64,000 nucleotides of DNA from Tubulanus polymorphus. Its lineage: Eukaryota > Animalia > Nemertea. The notes under the pieces are model-generated. The model was given only the letters and a program-made list of their open reading frames with translations. It was not told where the DNA came from and did no database searches. Positions 52,196-64,000 of this stretch are shown piece after piece (within the stretch, counting starts at the first letter, position 1; each line of letters opens with the position of its first letter). The DNA lies in contig NC_134026.1 of the NCBI RefSeq assembly GCF_964204645.1, forward strand, positions 28,678,150 through 28,742,149, given 5' to 3'. The translations under genes were made by a program, and so were the position numbers.

Positions 52196-54855
52196 ATGAT
52201 GTTACCTTCGATAAGCTTTGTTTTAACCTGCTGGTTGATGATGGTTTTAGTTACCGCTGAAAGGATACCGACTTTAGACGATATAAAAAGAGTGAAAAAA
52301 GATGATTTTGTCGATCCAAATGATATGTTTAATTATGAACCGAATGGGCTGAAAAAAATCAATGATAAGGTTTGTATCAGTTTTCTGCACGATTCCAGAA
52401 TTAAACTTCTGTGATATTGATTGCTTATGAATTTTGTATTGTAAGGAATTTGTGAAGATTGATGAGACGAACTCAGAAGACATGAATAAGAAATATAGGA
52501 AAGATTCGGCAAAACTTCCATCGGAACAAATCAGCGCGACTGAAAAAGTTGAGAAAGTTTGTCCTGCTGTTGTATCTGACCGTCCATTTTATAAACAGCA
52601 TATCAGATCATTACTGACTCATTTTACAAAAAAGGTGATTATAATCATTTTGATAAGCGCTAGAAGAAGAGTTTTATGTGAAAGCAAGTAATTACAGTGA
52701 AACCTCGTTACAATGAACTTTACGGACCAGAAAATAAGTTCATAATAACCGATAGTTAGTTATGTCCAGTATTGAAATAATTAAATTGTCTTACTTGGGA
52801 CATAATTTTATATTTGTAATACCCGATGAATCACTGTATCTATCAGGAAAATGTTTTGGAAAAGTGCAAACTTTGCCCACGTTGATGAAATGTCTCTCTC
52901 ATTCTGCCTCGTAGCTTGATTCTGAAAATTCACAAGAGGAAATGTCTTACGAACTGATTGTTACACTTTCAAAAAGTGATTTCAACATTCTGCAAAGTTT
53001 TGTCAATAAGGAGTCGGTTAGCATCCAAGATGTGAATTCAGTATTGGGTCAGATGATTCGTCGATCAAAGCCACTCGAAGAAGTTTTCGTTAGTAGATGG
53101 ACTTTTGAAGATATTTTTTTCGGTATCCAATATAAATTAGCTAAGGAAGTAAGTACAGAAATAATCATCACCGCTTTCATAAGACTGAAAGGAAATCTGG
53201 AGCAAATGTTGTTATTTTCAGATAATGATGATAATGATTTTGGTAATTACAACTATCTGTATCGGAACAAGAGTTCAAGTGTCTTGGAGAAGGCTTTTTG
53301 GACACATTGTCATGGTGTGTTTCATAATTAGCATACCATGGAATTGGTTTCATCTCTATAAGGTAAACGCATCAAAAATTCTAAGAAGAGATAGTCTAAA
53401 CTGGTACCGCAACACACCATTTGTAATATCAGGGGCGAATTGAGGGTTGTTTTCAAATTTTCCTGTAATTCTTCAGGAAGTGCATTTAAAATTAGTTTTG
53501 AGTGAGGCATCGTGGATCCGAACCTGAATAAAGCTCATAGCAATTAACATCAAATAAATCTGAAATCCGCGTATGATTTTGATTTCCAGGTGGCTGTTGC
53601 GAAGAGACAGTCAGAAGTGATAAAGGGGATACCGGAGGAATGTCGTCCTAGTGATATGTCCTGGCAGAAATCTATTCTCGGATACTTCGATAGTTTTATC
53701 ACGGTGAAGAAAGGAACTTGTGCGGAATATCATGAGAAGCTTCAGGTCGACCCATTTTGGGAAGTTTCACCACCGCAGGTAATTAATAGTTATATACATC
53801 CATTTAGGAAATTAATGATACCTTGGACTGTTGCTCATTGTGATATAGGACTCCTCAAATGCTTTCAAGCCAAATTATCATTTAACTCGAATACAAATCT
53901 TAAAACCATTGCAACAGAGAATTAAATTCCATTGTCTTAATCAAATTGTGGCCTCACTCGAACAAAAATGGTCTCAAATGATTCAAATTAAGAGGAGTAT
54001 GCTTTGATACAATGAAATGTGATAATTCGAGTTGTTTATAATGAAGTTCCAGTGTAATAATGACTTACTTTACAAAAAAATTCTTATTCAAAAAACCTGT
54101 TACTTGATAAGTAGTTGACATTTTATTCTGATGTTTTTGTTTTTTTAAGGCAGTTGCTGTCAGTATAACGAAATTCATTCTGGAACCTGTGACGCATATC
54201 GGGGAATCGATCAGTAAATTTTTCCGCAGTATTCTGTTACACGTTCCTCCGGTTATGTATCCTGTAGTGATCGGATGTACATTAGTGTGTCTGTTCTTTC
54301 TGTTAATACTGACGTTCGGTTATCGTATACGCCTGCCGTTCTTTATGGGGGCGATTGAACCGACAAAACAAGAACAGACATCATCGAAAGAATTCGTGAA
54401 AGCAATTGAAAGCATGAAAACTGAGGTAATAACTTGTTCCGTCAAGGACTGAAATATTTAATTCTTTACTGCTTAAATTCATTATTTGGAATTTTTTCTT
54501 GCAGATTATTGAATCAGTGCAGCATAGCATGTCTTCACAGAATAAGCTGCCAGCACCAGCCCCAACTCAACCAGCAGCTATTGAAAGTAGGCCAGGTGTG
54601 GAGGATATTGGACCATTAGTTAAAGTTGTAGCCGAACTGAAACATTCACTAGATACTGTTAAAAAACAGCAGCAATTGTACTCAGTTGATAAAAGCAGTT
54701 TGAATGAACCAAACTATTGTGCTATCGACAAGCCGTCCTCCGGTCTCGTAGAAAATGCAGACGATGCTGATAATAAACGGGACACTATTTGTGATGAAGA
54801 TAGTAATGAGGAATGTATCGATGTAATTGGTGCTGGTGATTCTTTAACGAACTGA
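52196..54855 (+). CDS. CLCC1: Chloride channel CLIC-like protein 1 (MCLC family ER membrane protein), 7 coding exons
   Basis: Signal peptide followed by FVDPNDMFNYE (cf. WIDPTDMLNYD); CFIISIPWNWFHLYK; CAEYHEKLQVDPFWEVSPPQAVAV; ILEPVTHIGESISKF plus a TM segment. Exons approx. 52196-52369, 52447-52634, 52915-53148, 53222-53362, 53590-53778, 54150-54425, 54505-54855; AATAAA at ~54889. Confidence 0.9.
52693..52838. mobile_element. Tc1/mariner (pogo/Tigger)-like MITE in a CLCC1 intron
   Basis: TA|CAGTGAAACCTCGTTA...ATCACTG|TA termini with TA duplication. Confidence 0.6.
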
Positions 54856-55372
54856 TTGAAGTAGTCATTATGTATATGAAATTTCTGAAAATAAAGTGTA
54901 TATGATGTGTATGTTTTTTCATAGAATTGTAAACTGAACGGTTTACACTTCTATGGTTTTTTGTTCGATGAAAATATATATGAAGACATTAGATGAATAT
55001 AATTCGTTCGTTTATTTCACGGAATGAAAATATTTTGTATATGAAAACAATTGAATATGATGTACAAATCATTGCAACATATATCGAAATTAGTCTGAGG
55101 TCGGTGTATTTATTGGTATATTTGTTTATTGCGGTAGTTAGCATAGTGTACATGGACAGACAAACAGTGTGCGAAATAGTTCCGTATAAAAACGATTAAT
55201 TGACCCTTAGACTCTTGATAAACAGGAACAATACACGCTCTGTCTACGACATTTTTAATCAAGTCGGGCACCCTTTTTATTAATGTCAAGTTGATAAAAA
55301 TGCTTATTGACTAATGAGCTGATAATGTATGATATCACTCCGCCGCGTGACGGCTCGTCGACCATTTTGTAA

Positions 55373-55470
55373 TCGTTCCTAGGAACGAAAAAGATCGAAC
55401 TCAGTCCACTATTGAAACTACCACACAGCCTGAGGGTTGCAAGTTACAACCCTGGGCTCTTTTTGTTTTA
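55373..55470 (+). promoter_or_regulatory. Probable ODC core promoter and 5' leader with a hairpin
   Basis: 16-bp palindrome TCGTTCCTAGGAACGA at 55373-55388; TCAGTC Inr-like motif at 55401; stem-loop 55427-55458 followed by a T-rich tract. Confidence 0.45.
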
Positions 55471-55494
55471 AAGTTTCCCTTTTAACCCTTCAGC

Positions 55495-56046
55495 ATTCCG
55501 CCGAATAAGAACACACAGTTCTGCAGTTGGGATCAGGTGAGTAAACTAATTCTTAAATCATGATTCGGCGGTTCTCTCTAAGCTCGATCAATTAGATTTT
55601 ATTTACCATACGTTAAACTAAATTAGTTCTTATATTCTTTCATTTTGTTTCTTGGATCGAAAATATTGGCGTTCGAACTGCAGTGACTACAGCGGTGAAA
55701 GCTGCAGCAATATTAATAATTTACTGTTTTTCTAAACTTTTCTGACGGAATTGTAGTAAATTCGCCTCGGCAGAATTTTAAGCTAAGCAGAACCTGTCAA
55801 AAATTGACAAGTGGCCGCGGCAATCAAAAATTGCTTCCAAAGCGCTGGATTTACAAAATCCTGCTGTACATTTCAAGAATGAAATATCGGTCGGCTAGGC
55901 CTATATCTATTTCATCGCAAGTTGCTGAAATATTGTTTCTAATTTTGAAGGTTCCTGCGTCTCAATACAAATCAAGCCCAGAAGGTAGTTGCCTACACAA
56001 GCAAGCGCTTGATTTCAACGCAGAACCCCCGTGGGATCCCAGCTGA
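55495..56046 (+). CDS. AUU-initiated, spliced upstream conserved coding region (uCC uORF) of ODC, 45 aa
   Basis: ATT 55495-55536 joined in phase 0 (GTGAGT donor; ttttgAAG acceptor) to 55951-56046 gives IPPNKNTQFCSWDQ|VPASQYKSSPEGSCLHKQALDFNAEPPWDPS*. Both ends match the AZIN1/ODC uCC pattern (IPP... and DFNAEPPWxPS*). Confidence 0.93.
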
Positions 56047-56346
56047 TATTTACTGAAACAACAAACATTTCAACTGGCCATGTAAGTAACCTAGTCGTAT
56101 TGCTTTGCAATGGTATTAAAAGCATTGAAAATTCAAATTATAAGAGTGTGACAGATGTTGTACCTGTTTATTCACTACTGAAAATCAGTTTGTTCAAATC
56201 AGGCCGTGGAATCTACTAAACGTAGTTTGATATCGCTTGAATTCACCTACAGTGACATACGTTCCAATGGTTTTTTCAGACTGCTCCGGATTTCCTAATA
56301 TTGCTTATACAGTATTCAATTGTTGTACAAAATACATTCATCCATC

Positions 56347-59300
56347 ATGAAATTAATCAATGTTGTTGAGAATGGTAACGTGGAAGTTCTTCCAGCCAAT
56401 CAAACGATGAGAGATATCTGCGACCAGAAGACAAATACCATGAAAAATGATGTAAGTCGCAGACCGTCGGTGAAGCAGCCTTTCTTATCGCAATTTTCCC
56501 TGCCTAAAAACTACTCGCTAAAGTTGTATGAACAGGGTCCCTACAACTCCTTGAATCCTTGAAAACTCCTTGATTTTGGAATATATTTTTCAAGGTCCTT
56601 GAAAATCCTTTAATTTTCAGAAATATCCATAAACTCCTTGAAACTCCTTAAATTCTGGGAAAGTCCTATTAAAAATTTTCAAAAGGTCCTTTTCAGAAGA
56701 CAGTGTATTCTATTATTCTTCATTGTGTGACTTGTGAGTGAAAGTTGTTTCACTTTGAGATTTAAACACAACAACTGATCAAAATTTGAGAAAAACATGG
56801 ATTTTGTATATGACCGCGAAAACCTCCTTGAATTTTGAAAATTACTCCTTGAAAATTCCTTGAAAAGTCCTTGAATTCTGGATACCAGGAATTGTAGGAA
56901 CCTTGATGAATCTTGAAAAATCATCGTAGTGTATTATATTTGTAGGAGAGTGAAAATGCGTTTTTCGGTTGTGATTTGACTGAAATCATCGACAGGTGGA
57001 GTAGATGGAACGCCAATTTACCGACTGTTCAACCATTTTACGGTATGTAGGCTTTCCCAAGATGACAAATATCGGTTTTGATTCTGATTTTTGAGTTTCA
57101 TCGATGTATTGTTTGTTGTAGCTGTGAAGTGTAATCCTGATCCCATCGTTCTACAGACTATGGCCGGTCTCGGCGCAAACTTTGATTGCGCAAGCAAAGT
57201 AAGTAACGTAGGCTGAATGAGCTTATTTACTAACACTATTGAGCTATAACCACTAAAACTGAGTGTATTGTTGGGTAATCTGGTTTGACGCCAGTCTCTC
57301 ATTAAAGGAATAATTGGGTAATTTCTATTTGGATGAAGTCGGAGGAATATTTGTTATTTTTTTCTCGTCCAGGTTGAGATGAAAACTGTTTTGAGTTTGG
57401 GCGTGTCCCCGAAACGAATCATCCTGGCGAACCCTTGTAAACAGTCGTCGCATATTGTTTACGCTCGAGACAACGGGGTCGAGATGATGACCTTCGATAA
57501 CATGGAAGAGTTGCACAAAGTCAAAAGAGTTTACCCCAATGCTAAGTAAGTGTTTAACACGTTCAAACAGTTGATTGCTATTGAGGGCATTATTAGTATC
57601 TCCAGGAATCTGATCTGCCATCAGGATCCTGGTGTAAACTGCACCTCTTAAACTGTGGGGCCAGTTCCTGCAGTTTTGGTTAACCAGTGGATGAATAAAG
57701 TGGTGGTTAAACTTCATTAGATACAATTAAAACTAGTTACTATGTGGTATTATCAAAAATTCATATAGTCTTTATGAATTTTTGGTATTATTTAATGGTT
57801 GACTTGAGCACCTGATTCTATTCAATCTCATTGATAGACCCGGATGTGATATGATAATCTTATGTCAATTTTATCAGGTTGGTACTCCGTATTTTGCCCG
57901 GTAATTTCAAGGCTCAAGTCGACTTGGGAATTAAATTTGGCTGCCACGTCAAAGATACGACTCGTCTCTTGGAGAAAGCGAAGGAATTGGAGTTGAACGT
58001 GATCGGAGTGAGGTAATAGATACTGCGTTTGAAATACTAGATTGTTGTTTTAGCGATGAATTGCGTTGATGTATGTTTCATTTGTTTATAGTTTTCATGT
58101 CGGAAGCGGTTGTCATGAAATCGAAGCGTATCCGACGGCGATAACTCTCGCTCGCAACGTGTTCGATCGTGCCGAATTGCTCGGTTTCAAACCTTACTTG
58201 CTCGACATCGGCGGTGGATTTCCGGGACAAGATGGAGGACCAATTAGCTTCGAACAGGTATTGATTCCTGCGATGAAATCTTGAAATTACACGATGTATA
58301 TTAGTTTAGATTGTGCTGATTATTGTTTGTATATAATGAACAGTTTAGCGAGTCTATCAATGGATCGTTGGAGAAGAATTTCCCGGCTGATTGTGGAGTT
58401 AGTGTAATTGCTGAACCAGGCCGCTATTTCGTGACTACCGCTTTCACGTTGGTTACTAACGTGATTGCCAGGCGCACCGTTTCCTCTGAGGAATTGGATG
58501 GTAGGTTTATTAATTCATTATGGACATAGTTTTTATCCAGGTGTCAATCTGCCTCTTGTCAGTGATCGGTGTAGTCTGGATGATTCGATTCTTGCATTGT
58601 TTGTGGGTCTGATGAAAAGATTAATTGATTTTTAAATAAAAATGCTGTCGGTTCATCCGGGCAGGAGGAGACCACCGATAGGGCAGTGCCCAGGAGACCC
58701 AAAACCATTTCAGTTCTATAGCCAATCTAAACCTTAATACCTGTCTTAAGATTTGAGACCACTTTTGGATTTGAGTCTCGGCTATCAGCTTGAGAATTAT
58801 TTTTTGTGTACGGATGGCAAAAGCCTGTTAAACGTCCGATTGGGTGGGTGCTGATTGACATCTGCATCATCACCCAACAAATCCACCATTTGAAAAAATC
58901 TATCTCATTTAATGGACGATTTTGTTTATGTGTAGATGGTATTCACAACACTCCTGCTCCGGGGAAGAATCGTAAAGCACCGGCATTCATGTATTACATC
59001 AATGACGGTGTTTATGGTTCCTTCAATTGTCTTCTGTACGACCACGTGCCAGAATGTCCGCCAGTTCTTTATAACGTAAGTCCGTCCTTTAAAGAACTTT
59101 GAATCATTGCGCGACACATTTCAACGACTAGTCTAAATACGTTTTCCTTTGACGTCTATTTCAGGATCGTTCAGCTGAACAGCATTATGCCAGTAGTATT
59201 TGGGGACCAACATGCGATGGTTTGGATTGCATAACCAATTACGTTCTTCTGCCCGAATTGGACGTCGGTGACTGGGTATTCTTCGAAAACATGGGAGCCT

Positions 59301-59805
59301 ATACGATGGCAGGTGGCAGCACATTCAACGGCATGCCCAAACCATCGGGATTCTATGTCATTGACGAGAAATACAAGTAAGCATTGCCTTATCGTTTATT
59401 GAAACTTCATTCATATGACTTCAATTCCACCTGATGAGTGAAACGCACTTTGACACTTCGTTATTAACATGATAAGATGAAGTGGTTGTGTGTCGTGATT
59501 TCCAAGAATTCAAGTGTCGTGGTCGAAAGTTTATCAGTATATATTCTGAATCATTTCGGACAAAAATGACAATATTCCAGTTATTGAATACTTGAATATC
59601 GCCTCAATATCTCTGAATTTGTTATTATAGGGAGCTGATGAAATCGAAATGCAAAACACAGCGCTGCGACAACGTGATGAAAGTAACCGATGTCGACCAA
59701 ATTATCGCCGAAGGTTTGCTGAATTGTATTCTCGATGAAAAAGAGCAAAGTTTGCGCAACAACCTGGATCAAGTCATGTTACCATTGACAACTATTGAGT
59801 TTTGA
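56347..59805 (+). CDS. ODC1: Ornithine decarboxylase (PLP-dependent, catalytically intact), 10 coding exons
   Basis: Exons 56347-56451, 56946-57042, 57122-57198, 57373-57545, 57878-58012, 58092-58257, 58344-58500, 58936-59075, 59165-59376, 59631-59805. Motifs PFYAVKCN (PLP lysine), [59 protein letters not shown] (catalytic Cys), NMGAYT..STFNG. AATAAA at 60205. Confidence 0.97.
56533..56905. mobile_element. MITE in an ODC intron
   Basis: TIR CAGGGTCCCTACA / TGTAGGAACCTTG (2 mismatches), flanked on both sides by ATGAA; many internal (A)CTCCTTGAA repeats. Confidence 0.85.
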
Positions 59806-61270
59806 AAATCTATCTTGCTTAGTTACACAGATATATCTGATCATAATATAAGTTTTGTCTAATTTGTACGCGTTGCATTAACAGCACATTAAATCATCCG
59901 GTGGTTGTCGAAAAACATATCTTTATCGAATCACTCACTAAGAAAGATATTGGAATCCTCACGTATATCATGAATTGTGGTGTGGGTATTTTAATTACCA
60001 ATTTCATCAAGTCACATTGTATGTCCATTCCGGCAAAGATGTTATAGTTTTTAGTTCGTCATTTCTGCTTGAGCACTGTTGTTTTGTTTAAGCTTTATTG
60101 GGAAATTCGTGAGCAGCCAGTGTCTCGACACGATATGTATTAATTTATGATTGTAATTCATATATTCTAATCAAATTTGCTTTGAAATCGTAGTATATAA
60201 GATCAATAAAGGCCAATTGAAGTAGTGAAATAATATGTTCTCATCTTGTGTTTTTACCGAGGGAAAGTTGTCTGCCGTACAAGTGGAATCTTGCTATACG
60301 ACCTTGGATCTTACAATTTATCAGTTTCCTACTGGTATTAGAAATCTAGAATTTCATCTAAAATAGGAAAATTTTGATAATTTCAATAATATATTCTGAT
60401 CCCCTCCTCTCCAGTTCCTTCGCTTACAAATCGAACCTACAATAGTTTGATCGTCTCCAAATCATGGGAATTCATTATGAGCGTAAATGTCCATAGTCTT
60501 CAGGGAAACTAGTCGGCGAGTAAGCCATCGATTTTCAAGTAGGAGAGCTTTGAGCCCTAGACTGGTATTAACTTAAACTCATGGGCTAACTCAATTCATT
60601 TTCAATTGAGTTAACCCCTGGGTTAAAGATAATATGTCTATAAAACCAGGCCCTGAAAAACTAACTCATCACTGAAATTCTGAATATAGAGAATCTTCAA
60701 CTTCGGATGATATCATGCCAGAAATGAACTATCATTAAAATGCGCATATTTTCTTGTCCCTAGCTCCTCTGTACTGGCAGTTTCGCTCCAATTCCTTACA
60801 CTTATAAATGTATCCGACAAGAGTGACAACCTCGAGAGTAGGAGAAAATCTAACCAGAACAACTAGATGGTTGTTATACGAGTAATAAATAGTCATTGTT
60901 GGTCATAGTCATTGGGAAAAAAGGTGGGAATTCATCAATTTTCGAATTGGAATGGCTGGCTATGTACAAAACCCTGAAACCTTATTCCTCAATCACGATA
61001 GATGATGGTAGCAAGTGATCCTAACCATCGAAAACGTAGAAAAAATAAATATAACTTGAAAATCATGATCGATTTTAATGGCTTAAAATAATTAGCAGTC
61101 TCCAAGTAGATAATATGCAATACATAAAATATAAACGCTTAGATTGTCATTTAATAACTTGCACCACATGTTTTAGGGCTCAACATATTCAGCATTGACT
61201 GTAATATCCAAAATACATACATTTTTTTATACAACATCATACAAAATAAATGAATGTGAACAATATGGTT

Positions 61271-64000
61271 TTAATAACAGAATTGTGCACATTCATCTGC
61301 GTGTGATTCAATTTCTAATGCGGAAAATTGTCTCCCACATAACGGACACGGCACTAAATCTACAGACGAGTTCAATGTTCGTGGCCTTCGTTGCGCTTCG
61401 AACGGTCGTATGAATCCGCCGGCAGGATGAGCACCAGCTGTATTTTGTGAAGGCGTATTCTTGATTTCATTGCGACGAACATTGCAACTTGCGGCATGAA
61501 CCTCGACCGCATACAGAGGAAACATTCCTTAAAATATATACACGACTAGTAATAAATAAATCCATATCCAGGATTTGATGACTGAATATTTAATATATCC
61601 TACCATTGCATATCGGACATCTTGACATATTTGGTGGAGTTTTTTGGTTTGATGATTTGTTATTTTCATTAGGCGATGTTTTCTGCGTCGAAGGTGAAGA
61701 ACTATAAACAAACATAGTTATCTCTAATGAGACAAAAAGGCAATGCACCAGCGATACTCGTAATCATGATATCCTCACTTGAGAGACTCGAGGAACTGCG
61801 ATTTCGAGTTAGATCCACGCGCCGAACCTGGAGTCGTGAGAGTTTTTGGCAAGGTTCTTCGTTTCTTGGTTGCGCTTGTATTCTGTGATGTGGTCGGAGT
61901 ATTATCCGGAGTAGTTGGTGCTGAATGATGATTATATGGGGTTGGAGGACTAGGACTGACTTGATTGTTTTTTCGTTTTTGTGCAGATGCACCTGAAAGT
62001 ACCAGGTAATAATATCATGCCATGAATCGGATGTCATCAGTAGATAATAGAATATTCATTATTTTTGGCACATACTTGTTCTAAGCCATACATTATCGGT
62101 TTGTCGTGACACGGCCTGATCTGATAAACTGCACACCGATTGCTTTCGTTGAACTACTTTTACTTAAAATAAATAAAACTAGAACATTCATCACTCACTG
62201 ATGTTTTTACAAGCTGTCGATAATAAATGGGTTAAATTGAATTCTATGAATAATTCATAGAATTTATGTTTAACAAAAAAGAATTCAATCCTACCATTAT
62301 TCCTGTTTGGAGTTAGAACCTGAGTTTTGATTGCAGAATAAACCAATTTTCCATCGATAGCAGTATTCTTACACGAATAAGAACTCTGTGGCGATTTGTT
62401 CATTGTGATTGAAGGTTTCTTCAACGAATGAAAAGTTTGTGGTGATTGTTTTATCACAATACCGCTTGTCTTATTCACTGCATTAGCACCTGGAGACGTC
62501 ATAGAAAATTTCCGTAATTGTTCAACGATATTTTTAGATTTTTCCGATAGATTTGGAGATATAGATTTCTTCGAGTTCGAAATGTTTTCACTGTTTTTAT
62601 CCGATTTTGGCGTAACATAGTCTTCACTTTGCTTTCTAGCCGGTTTCGTTCCGAGAAAAGATCGACCTAGCGGTTTAGGTTGTTTGTCTCTTTTACTGAG
62701 AATACCTGGTAAATCCTCAGTAACTGAATTCAATGGTTCACCTTTCTCTGAAGATTCTGAAATATCATTTTAAGTAATTACATTCAAATCTGAAGATAAT
62801 TTGAATTTATAAGCATTCTACTTAACTAACCTTTCGGTTTTGATATGAATTCACCATTATCATCAAATGAATTTTCAAGAAATCCTTGCCCCGCAGCGAA
62901 GAAATATTTCTTTTCTTCTTTTGTCAACTTTCGTTTTATTTGTTTTTCCAGTTTGTGTCTCAGGTCGGCCATTGTTATCGTATTCAGATCTAGCATAGAA
63001 GGATCCAATTTCTTAAAGAAGTTTGTAATTCTATCCTCAAACTGTAATGAATAATTTCAAAATTCATTAATCCAACAATGATTGCAATTCTATATTAATG
63101 ATTAAGAGAGCATTTCATGTATAGCCCACGTACTTCCGATTCCGATGCAGTTCTTTCATTTGGTTCCGGTGCATTTTGCTCAGAAAATTCATTTTTCTTG
63201 TTCAACCTGAATACAGAAACTGAACTAGCTAGATTCATGGCATGTTTTGCGGTCATTTTTGTAAAATTTGATAAAATTTGCAAACAGTTCATTTCTATAG
63301 CGGCCGGGTCTGTTGTGGTAAAATTGATCACGATTTAAAAAAAAGTAATGTATAGGGTAGATAGGCGGCCGGCCGGGTCAACATTTAAGCTCAGCAGAGT
63401 GGAGAAACAAGGTATCAATTTTTTTTAGCCTTACTTTCGACAGTTTCAAACTTTACTTACAATTTATTTTTGAACTTTAAGATATCATTTTTTGAGTTTG
63501 ATAATGTCGACGACAGGGGAAATTTTTGTTTAGCAGCCTCGGGCGTGAGAGACTTTTTCTGAAAAAGAAGCATTTAAAATCAGAAGTCTGCTTAAAGTGT
63601 TTATTTTTTGTTTAGAATGCTGTTTATAGAGATTACCTCCTGTTCTGTAAGACGTAGTGTTTTCACAGCAATCATTGATAAACCAAACTGTTTATCTTTA
63701 GTAAATGGTTGTTTACAAACTATTTTCAAACGATCCCATTGTTGACCTTTACTATCGGCATCAAAATCACCTATAATTGATGAATACATGAAAACACTAA
63801 AACATAAATTGATATTATGTCAAAAAGCTTAAGTACGATCAACTGACTTTCATTAAACATTCGAATGCTGTTCGTATTCTTCCATGATTTTGAATCCATC
63901 AGCGTCATGAATGTATTTGCCGGCAATAGACAAACATAAGGTCTATTCTGAGGCCACGAGGATCTGCCAACTGAAACCTCTATGAAAGCACAACCGTGGT
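61271..64000 (-). CDS. XNDC1: XRCC1 N-terminal domain-containing protein (XNDC1-like) with two C-terminal UBZ-type zinc fingers; 5' end outside the window
   Basis: Exons approx. 63848->64000 (HGCAFIEVSVGRSSWPQNRPYVCLLPANTFMTLMDSKSWKNTNSIRMF), 63638-63771 (WDRLKIVCKQPFTKDKQFGLSMI), 63133-63299, 62831-63042, 62295-62756, 61779-61992, 61604-61701, 61271-61527. The C-terminus has CPICNGMFPLYAVEVHAASC and CPLCGRQFSALEIESHADEC; no BRCT domains. Confidence 0.85.

What the first reader, a model, noticed from the sequence alone, without database searches (positions are those of the whole stretch)
55495..56046. Hidden AUU-initiated, intron-split polyamine-sensing uORF (uCC) upstream of an active ODC
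Seen: agcATTCCGCCG (A at -3) opens 14 codons to a GTGAGT donor. A phase-0 join to 55951 gives a 45-aa peptide ending DFNAEPPWDPS*, and the spliced leader has no AUG before the ODC start at 56347. Known: vertebrate antizyme inhibitor AZIN1 and many invertebrate and fungal ODC homologues carry an AUU-initiated uCC. Its PPW motif stalls ribosomes when high polyamine levels inhibit eIF5A, and the resulting queue boosts AUU initiation and represses the main ORF; PS-stop is also a known eIF5A-sensitive termination motif. Inference: this ODC keeps both catalytic residues (AVKCN Lys, PTCD Cys) and is feedback-repressed in the same way, consistent with the ancestral arrangement. The ORF track catches only the second half, with a false start. 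The system class is known, but this instance is unlikely to be annotated.
Basis: partly seen in the sequence, partly recalled or inferred. Interest (0 to 1): 0.85.

Follow-up and report, generated by a model that had tools for sequence, protein, structure and literature searches.

The report
Polyamine-sensor uORF with readthrough tail
The spliced messenger RNA for a ribbon worm's polyamine-making enzyme carries a short upstream reading frame of a known family that likely starts at AUU and likely brakes enzyme production when polyamines are high, and that frame keeps a protein-coding pattern for 17 codons past its own stop, which likely means some ribosomes read through that stop.

Summary
Observation confirmed. 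ATT 55495 (A at -3), the 55536/55951 splice, the 45-codon frame ending PPW-D-PS-UGA and the AUG-free leader are as described. Contigs of three public runs (two studies) carry both leader junctions. The 478-aa product is identical to an NCBI ODC-like protein of the nemertean Tubulanus polymorphus; 23 of 25 checked ODC residues match human. In 12 of 13 testable animal ODC leaders an in-frame AUU with -3 A sits 39-44 codons before PPW (0 of 14 in other frames). This is a member of the known animal uCC family (AZIN1 type); polyamine control here is inferred, not measured. Three more gene calls show the tail. Likeliest cause is UGA readthrough (about 0.5); an RNA element is the rival. The scan found uCCs before on other DNA and once noted such a tail in relatives. 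My paper searches found no description, but the primary papers were not readable.

The parts
55425..55536 (+). Leader exon 1 (5' end not mapped; 55425 is the furthest contig end)
   Evidence: X4 contig unbroken 55425-55534
55495..55497 (+). Predicted AUU start of the uCC, A at -3, C at +4
   Evidence: matching in-frame ATT with -3 A in 12 of 13 testable relatives
55495..55536 (+). uCC codons 1-14 (begins Ile-Pro-Pro)
   Evidence: less conserved half, pN 0.30 against L001 over the first 19 aligned codons
55537..55950 (+). Intron 1, phase 0, 414 nt, GT..AG
   Evidence: skipped in contigs of X3, X4, X5
55951..56046 (+). uCC codons 15-45 and UGA stop (56044-56046)
   Evidence: last 26 codons pS 0.40, pN 0.05 against L001, Fisher p 0.001
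56026..56046 (+). PPW-D-PS-stop motif (predicted eIF5A-dependent stall and termination site)
   Evidence: single occurrence in the window; conserved in relatives
56047..56081 (+). In-frame tail after the UGA, first part (11 codons plus 2 nt; begins Tyr-Leu-Leu-Lys)
   Evidence: tail also in P0140, P0141 and partly P0142
56082..56279 (+). Intron 2, 198 nt; splicing removes the only ATG-forming junction (56080-56082)
56280..56298 (+). Tail, second part, ending Ile-Ser and a second stop TAA (56296-56298), 48 nt before the ODC AUG
   Evidence: stop kept as TAA or TAG at the same place in L001, L003, L009, L011
56347..59805 (+). Ornithine decarboxylase coding region, 10 exons, 478 aa
   Evidence: spliced product identical to P0001; introns
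57127..57129 (+). Lys70 (human Lys69 equivalent)
59213..59215 (+). Cys367 (human Cys360 equivalent)
55879..56046 (+). Spurious ATG ORF that starts in intron 1 and runs into the uCC frame
   Evidence: its ATG lies in the intron skipped

Best explanation
This is a spliced, 45-codon uCC of the AZIN1 family in the leader of an intact-looking ODC gene; it likely starts at AUU and likely works as a polyamine feedback brake, and its conserved 17-codon tail is likely made by partial readthrough of the UGA. Shown: anatomy, splicing, conservation of AUU, frame and PPW-x-PS-stop, and coding-type selection on the tail. Inferred from AZIN1 and HOL1: at low polyamines most scanning subunits skip the weak AUU and reach the ODC AUG. 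At high polyamines eIF5A is impaired and the few ribosomes on the uORF stall at PPW and PS-stop. A queue of about four ribosomes (117 nt from AUU to PPW) then parks scanning subunits on the AUU, raising its use and shutting ODC off. Inferred for the tail (about 0.5 on its own): slow termination at PS-UGA-UAU lets a fraction of ribosomes insert a residue and run 17 more codons to a second stop 48 nt before the ODC AUG. That would cut re-initiation further or set up a second pause.
For: Junctions in contigs of 3 of 5 runs, two studies. ATT with -3 purine 39-44 codons before PPW in 13 of 14 leaders including the window, 0 of 14 in each other frame, chance 0.049 per leader; frame open for 39 codons in 14 of 14 against 2 and 1 of 14. 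Purifying selection on the C-terminal half (omega 0.04 on the last 15 codons of five sequences). A profile search returned 48 proteins, 45 with the motif, 36 ending exactly at PS or PC. Tail: omega 0.13, LRT 26.6 in the uCC frame, not below 1 significantly in the other sense frames; 67 of 107 differing codon pairs keep the residue against 0.20 in column shuffles, p<1e-4, also for the last 8 codons alone and for nemertean-annelid pairs alone; the only indel is 6 nt (L001); the second stop swaps TAA/TAG; all 5 carriers have UGA-UAU. Three further gene calls carry the tail (shuffle p 5e-5, 5e-5, 5e-4). Mechanism passages.
Against: No ribosome, reporter or peptide data exist for this gene; contigs show neither translation nor strand nor 5' end. 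+4 is C, so the context is half a Kozak match. L011 has an AUG in poor context and no AUU; L008, L010, L012, L013 and L014 do not end in PS, so parts of the motif are dispensable in some lineages. The tail is absent from 10 of 14 uCC-bearing loci; 5 of those 10 also use UGA. In mollusc-clade L005 and L007 the post-stop nucleotides still resemble the window (z 4.4, 5.1) while the frame is broken, and L002 keeps the last codons behind an internal stop: both point to some constraint at RNA level. The five tail sequences were picked after seeing them (nucleotide similarity picks the same ones: z 8.2-13.1 against at most 5.1). One reverse-strand frame also gives omega 0.24, expected as a shadow of a coding frame but not excluded as noise. 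UGA-UAU is not the UGA-CUAG readthrough context (recalled).
Confidence: 0.8

Rival explanations
1. The uCC works as described, but the post-stop conservation is an RNA element (a hairpin over the stop codon, a protein-binding site or splicing signals around intron 2) and is never translated.
For: A stem pairing the PS-stop with a segment about 25 nt downstream forms in 75% of cells against 28-49% in slid controls; L003 folds it strongly (z -2.7). Mollusc-clade L005 and L007 keep nucleotide similarity without the frame.
Against: The window's hairpin is no better than shuffles (z -0.21); 7 of 8 sequences folded are not significant; consensus energy is -0.4 kcal/mol with no two-sided change; covariation is not above shuffles (54 of 500), and the structure was drawn from L003. 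The last 8 codons lie mostly beyond the hairpin and show the strongest synonymous bias (33 of 44).
Confidence: 0.25
2. The tail is translated, but by re-initiation at a CUG or UUG just after the stop, or by selenocysteine insertion at the UGA.
For: Each of the five carriers has a CUG or UUG among the two Leu codons after the stop; all five use UGA.
Against: The near-cognate codon changes position and mostly has a pyrimidine at -3; Leu codons of the YTR type give this often by chance. No SECIS or other relevant Rfam match at E<=1 in window 55300-61500 or in L001, L003, L009, L011.
Confidence: 0.1
3. The uORF is translated, but it acts mainly by triggering mRNA decay (its stop lies upstream of ten exon junctions) or as a fixed damper, not as a polyamine-gated translational queue.
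For: Ten junctions lie downstream of the UGA; uORFs can act through NMD (passage); a C. elegans study links eIF5A, polyamines and stall-dependent mRNA levels and found inconsistent odc-1 changes (title and passages).
Against: Conservation of a weak AUU, a narrow AUU-to-PPW spacing and the PPW residues is what the queuing model needs and what plain NMD does not.
Confidence: 0.12
4. The frame is a chance or decayed sequence with no function.
For: None beyond the lack of functional data.
Against: Conservation and selection tests.
Confidence: 0.02

Closest known systems
Animal uCC of ODC homologues (Ivanov, Loughran and Atkins 2008; seen only through section 6 of review PMC2811004)
   Same: Non-AUG (AUU) start in good context, two prolines near the C-terminus, PS-stop end, position in an ODC-homologue leader.
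   Different: Whether Nemertea is among the six phyla is not stated in the section read. The section describes no coding past the uCC stop.
Vertebrate AZIN1 uCC (Ivanov et al. 2018; seen only through passages of PMC9082881, PMC11550727, PMC11058473 and 10.1101/710061)
   Same: Ile-Pro-Pro start, PE and DFNAEPPW-x-PS end, aligned with P0169, which fits the quoted mouse numbering; AUU 39 codons before PPW here against 46.
   Different: The main ORF here looks like an active ODC, not an inhibitor. There are no extra AUG uORFs in the mapped leader. Six gene calls that resemble P0169 stop within 1-2 residues after the inferred UGA, so they have a back-up stop where the window has a 17-codon tail.
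Yeast HOL1 uORF PS-stop (Vindu et al. 2021; passage in PMC11550727)
   Same: PS-stop as a polyamine- and eIF5A-sensitive termination site.
   Different: Not homologous; controls a transporter; no PPW elongation stall.
Vertebrate AMD1 readthrough tail (Yordanova et al. 2018; passage in 10.1101/710061)
   Same: A polyamine-pathway mRNA in which stop readthrough leads to a conserved in-frame tail and a proposed queue.
   Different: AMD1's tail follows the main ORF; here it would follow a uORF, is 17 codons long, and is not homologous.

Membership tests
Animal uCC of ODC homologues | Lies in the spliced 5' leader of an ODC homologue | tested here: met
Animal uCC of ODC homologues | [quoted passage not shown] | tested here: met
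   13 of 14 leaders, all with A at -3; +4 is not G
Animal uCC of ODC homologues | Adjacent prolines (PPW) near the C-terminus and PS-stop end | tested here: met
Animal uCC of ODC homologues | Peptide-level conservation concentrated at the C-terminus; homology to the AZIN1 uCC | tested here: met
   pN 0.05 against 0.30; omega 0.04; P0169 alignment and numbering
Animal uCC of ODC homologues | Initiation at the AUU in vivo | not testable with these tools
   only contigs available
Animal uCC of ODC homologues | Polyamine-dependent, peptide-dependent repression of the main ORF via eIF5A and queuing | not testable with these tools
   needs reporters or ribosome profiling
Eukaryotic ornithine decarboxylase (active) | Full PLP-, substrate- and dimer-contact residue set; closer to ODC than to AZIN1 | tested here: met
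   23 of 25 positions identical to human (list recalled, numbering; K294->R, F400->M differ); 453 against 333 bits
Eukaryotic ornithine decarboxylase (active) | Decarboxylase activity | not testable with these tools
   needs an enzyme assay
Programmed stop-codon readthrough | Coding-type selection in frame from the first stop to a conserved second stop | tested here: met
Programmed stop-codon readthrough | Conserved leaky stop and a known stimulator (UGA-CUAG motif or 3' stem-loop) | tested here: inconclusive
   UGA-UAU in 5 of 5 carriers, not CUAG; hairpin weak and overlapping the stop
Programmed stop-codon readthrough | Measured readthrough product or footprints | not testable with these tools
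   no raw reads or proteomics
Selenoprotein-type UGA recoding | SECIS element in the mRNA | tested here: not met
   no SECIS match at E<=1; Rfam may miss divergent ones

The most novel reading that the evidence does not exclude
In nemerteans and annelids the ODC uCC is a doubly recoded switch: it starts at AUU and its PS-UGA stop is read through into a conserved 17-residue tail, with readthrough rising when polyamines slow eIF5A-dependent termination. The tail acts as a second regulatory stage that blocks re-initiation at the ODC AUG or forms a second stall. It has been kept across two phyla and lost in mollusc-, clitellate- and vertebrate-like lineages.
Probability: 0.45. Interest if true: 0.72.

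Novelty: new variant of a known kind. Interest (0 to 1): 0.5.

Why it matters
The uCC itself is a textbook class, so one more instance matters little, although it is a clean, transcript-supported case on an intact ODC in a little-studied phylum. The tail matters more. Conserved readthrough of a regulatory uORF's stop would join two recoding events in one 190-nt element. It would give a natural, quantifiable test of whether polyamine and eIF5A control of PS-stop termination turns into readthrough, and of what a ribosome does after passing a stall site in a leader. It can be tested directly with reporters and annelid ribosome profiling.

Tried and rejected
No whole genome is held, so paralogues and antizyme could not be checked. 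No RNA holder listed by record; run kinds are unknown and were judged only by their joints. Upstream splicing or trans-splicing at the TTCAG before the ATT: not seen, contigs cross it, though contigs drop rare forms. Other acceptors in intron 1: 28 other AGs listed, none seen used. Polymorphism: X1 differs at 11 listed places in 55152-56559 and none in the 138 uORF bases; about 1 expected, uninformative. A word-based search with the L003 uCC peptide found nothing among proteins of 25-83 aa, weak by design. The Pfam scan of single exons did not run; domains are taken from the precomputed entries. Hairpin as the sole explanation of the tail: not supported. SECIS: none. PMC6313458 had no residue-level ODC/AZIN comparison. 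Primary papers (Ivanov 2008, Ivanov 2018, Vindu 2021, Dever and Ivanov 2018, Dever 2023) are not held; their supplements, which I could not see, may already show this sequence or the tail. Trees are quick ML searches without bootstrap; L055 and L072 were left out because their ORFs were short.

Full report
1. Observation. ATT lies at 55495 with A at -3 and C at +4; 14 codons end at a GTGAGT donor (55537); joining to 55951 gives 45 codons ending PPW-D-PS-TGA at 56046. PPW-x-PS-stop occurs once in the window's six frames. Five public runs hold the stretch; none is on record as RNA. Contigs of X3, X4 and X5 (two studies) skip 55537-55950, 56082-56279 and nine ODC introns, all GT..AG once an allelic letter at two junctions is allowed; X1 and X2 show no joints. 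The pyrimidine tract and AG just before the ATT could have been an acceptor, but X4 and X3 contigs cross it, and L001's contig has the same 5' context. The spliced leader from 55425 has no ATG. The 5' end is unmapped; ATGs at 55283-55329 would matter only for a start further upstream.

2. The main gene. The ten exons give 478 aa, identical to P0001, which NCBI names ornithine decarboxylase-like of Tubulanus polymorphus, a nemertean. It scores 453 bits against human ODC and 333 against AZIN1. Of 25 active-site and interface positions (list recalled; numbering), 23 are identical to human; K294 is Arg and F400 is Met. Activity is inferred.

3. Conservation of the uORF, found by starting from ODC and looking upstream. 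An ODC alignment retrieved the best 80 of 589 metagenome-collection loci. Thirteen (L001-L012, L014) group with the window and two named molluscs at SH-aLRT 96. Twelve of these 13 carry a PPW uORF; L002's contig has only 91 nt of leader. L013 and L016, outside that clade, also carry one. L015, L022 and L042, in fungus-like clades, matched the PPW pattern and were not included. In the 14 testable leaders (window plus 13; L006 dropped as 5'-short) an ATT with a -3 purine lies 39-44 codons before PPW in 13, against 0 in either other frame and 0.049 expected; the frame is open in 14 of 14 against 2 and 1. L011 has a poor-context ATG instead. Window against L001: last 26 codons pS 0.40, pN 0.05 (Fisher p 0.001). 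A profile search of 1.84 billion proteins gave 48 hits; 45 carry the motif and 36 end at PS or PC. P0169 has GP at 14-15 and PPW at 47-49, the numbering given for mouse Azin1 in passages of 10.1101/710061, which ties the window's peptide to the AZIN1 uCC. Ten of 13 relatives have a CAG/G, AAG/G or similar junction-like sequence at codon 12-17 (eight CAG/G), and genomic gene calls read from intron-like sequence into the same point; a shared phase-0 intron is an inference.

4. The tail. The nucleotides after the UGA were unexpectedly similar between the window and L001. In the uCC frame they read 17 codons (19 in L001, by a 6-nt insertion) to a second stop in the window, L001, L003, L009 and L011, that is 4 of 14 uCC-bearing loci. 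L001 is sister to the window; L003, L009 and L011 fall in a clade with Capitella and Helobdella at SH-aLRT 99. A 64-state codon model on the five gives omega 0.13 (LRT 26.6, p 2.5e-7) in this frame, 0.81 and 3.8 in the other sense frames, and 0.91, 0.24 and 5.9 on the reverse strand. Of 107 codon pairs that differ, 67 keep the residue against 0.20 expected after shuffling columns (p<1e-4); the result holds for the first 10 codons (p 2.5e-4), the last 8 (33 of 44) and cross-phylum pairs alone (41 of 65). Pairs are not independent and the five were chosen after inspection, though nucleotide similarity alone separates the same four relatives (z 8.2-13.1 against at most 5.1). All five use UGA-UAU; of the ten non-carriers five use UGA and five UAG or UAA. 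Three of the nine carry the tail (9, 7 and 6 of 11 identities to the nearest carrier; the profile contained the tail, so this is not a blind test), and six stop within two residues. P0140 ends in the same three residues as the unspliced window, which suggests a shared intron 2. Against a peptide reading: mollusc-clade L005 and L007 keep nucleotide similarity with the frame broken, and L002 keeps only the last codons behind a stop. A hairpin over the stop can be drawn (75% of cells paired) but is significant in 1 of 8 sequences folded and lacks covariation beyond shuffles. No SECIS was found.

5. Mechanism. From section 6 of PMC2811004 and passages of PMC9082881, PMC11550727 and PMC11058473: a weak AUU is mostly skipped; high polyamines impair eIF5A; ribosomes stall at PPW, and at PS-stop in HOL1; the queue raises AUU initiation and represses the main ORF. 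Every sequence feature that model needs is present and conserved here, so I put it at 0.8-0.85 for this gene. None of the functional steps was measured. For the tail I favour readthrough: selection begins at the first codon after the stop, no conserved start codon exists, and the second stop is conserved with synonymous change. Its likely effect is to end translation 48 nt rather than 102 nt before the ODC AUG, or to give a second pause. I put readthrough at about 0.5, an untranslated RNA element at 0.25, and other entry routes at 0.1.

6. Novelty. The uCC class is known since 2008, and the scan's own notes hold five similar findings in other genomes; one (e1-8672333) mentions coding past the stop in relatives (returned in the same turn, after the similarity was seen). 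It is a lead, not support, and may rest on the same loci. Paper searches: nemertea appears in none of the 20 listed of 138 hits; AZIN1+uCC+readthrough gave 3 papers, one read in passages with nothing on this and two seen as listings; a five-term search gave 2 (one read in passages); two searches gave 0. The primary papers and their supplements were not readable, so 'undescribed' is provisional.

7. Verdict. Real, a member of the animal uCC family, with a probable lineage-specific readthrough tail: new variant of a known kind. Interest 0.5; 0.72 if regulated readthrough is shown.

Noticed in passing
L011:9-149: The uCC here has an in-frame AUG in poor context (C at -3) 40 codons before PPW and no AUU; the contig starts 8 nt upstream, so it may be a true AUG variant or an alternative 5' end.
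   Followed up: partly
L008, L010, L012, L014 leaders: The clade with Helobdella keeps AUU and PPW but has lost PS-stop (PPWDPC, PPWDPE, PPWDHH; L014 has a partial duplication of the end) and has no tail.
   Followed up: partly
L055:2810, L062:530, L072:2758: Fungus-like ODC leaders share a different AUG-less frame ending in PP-stop with a conserved LPHRT stretch, probably the Pezizomycota-type uCC.
   Followed up: no
L015:254, L022, L042:158: PPW-containing short frames in leaders of fungus-like ODC loci, with other endings.
   Followed up: no
window 56045-56056 and the same place in L001, L003-L005, L007, L009, L011: The +1 frame after the uCC stop closes after three codons in all eight; it may be a by-product of the conserved post-stop nucleotides or a trap for +1 slippage.
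   Followed up: no
P0144, P0145, P0149, P0150, P0151, P0155: AZIN1-like gene calls end one or two Trp after PS, implying a back-up stop right after the UGA.
   Followed up: partly
window 55790-55845, 56530-56900, 58730-58770: Intronic repeats: many contigs from elsewhere in the genome match here with loose ends.
   Followed up: no
window 54148-54969: An upstream spliced gene on the same strand ends near 54969, so the ODC promoter must lie within about 450 nt; a TCAGT initiator-like word (motif recalled) is at 55402-55406.
   Followed up: no
P0039, P0053 (Ephemera), P0131 (Lingula): ODC-family proteins of 718-734 aa, much longer than usual; fusions or annotation artefacts.
   Followed up: no
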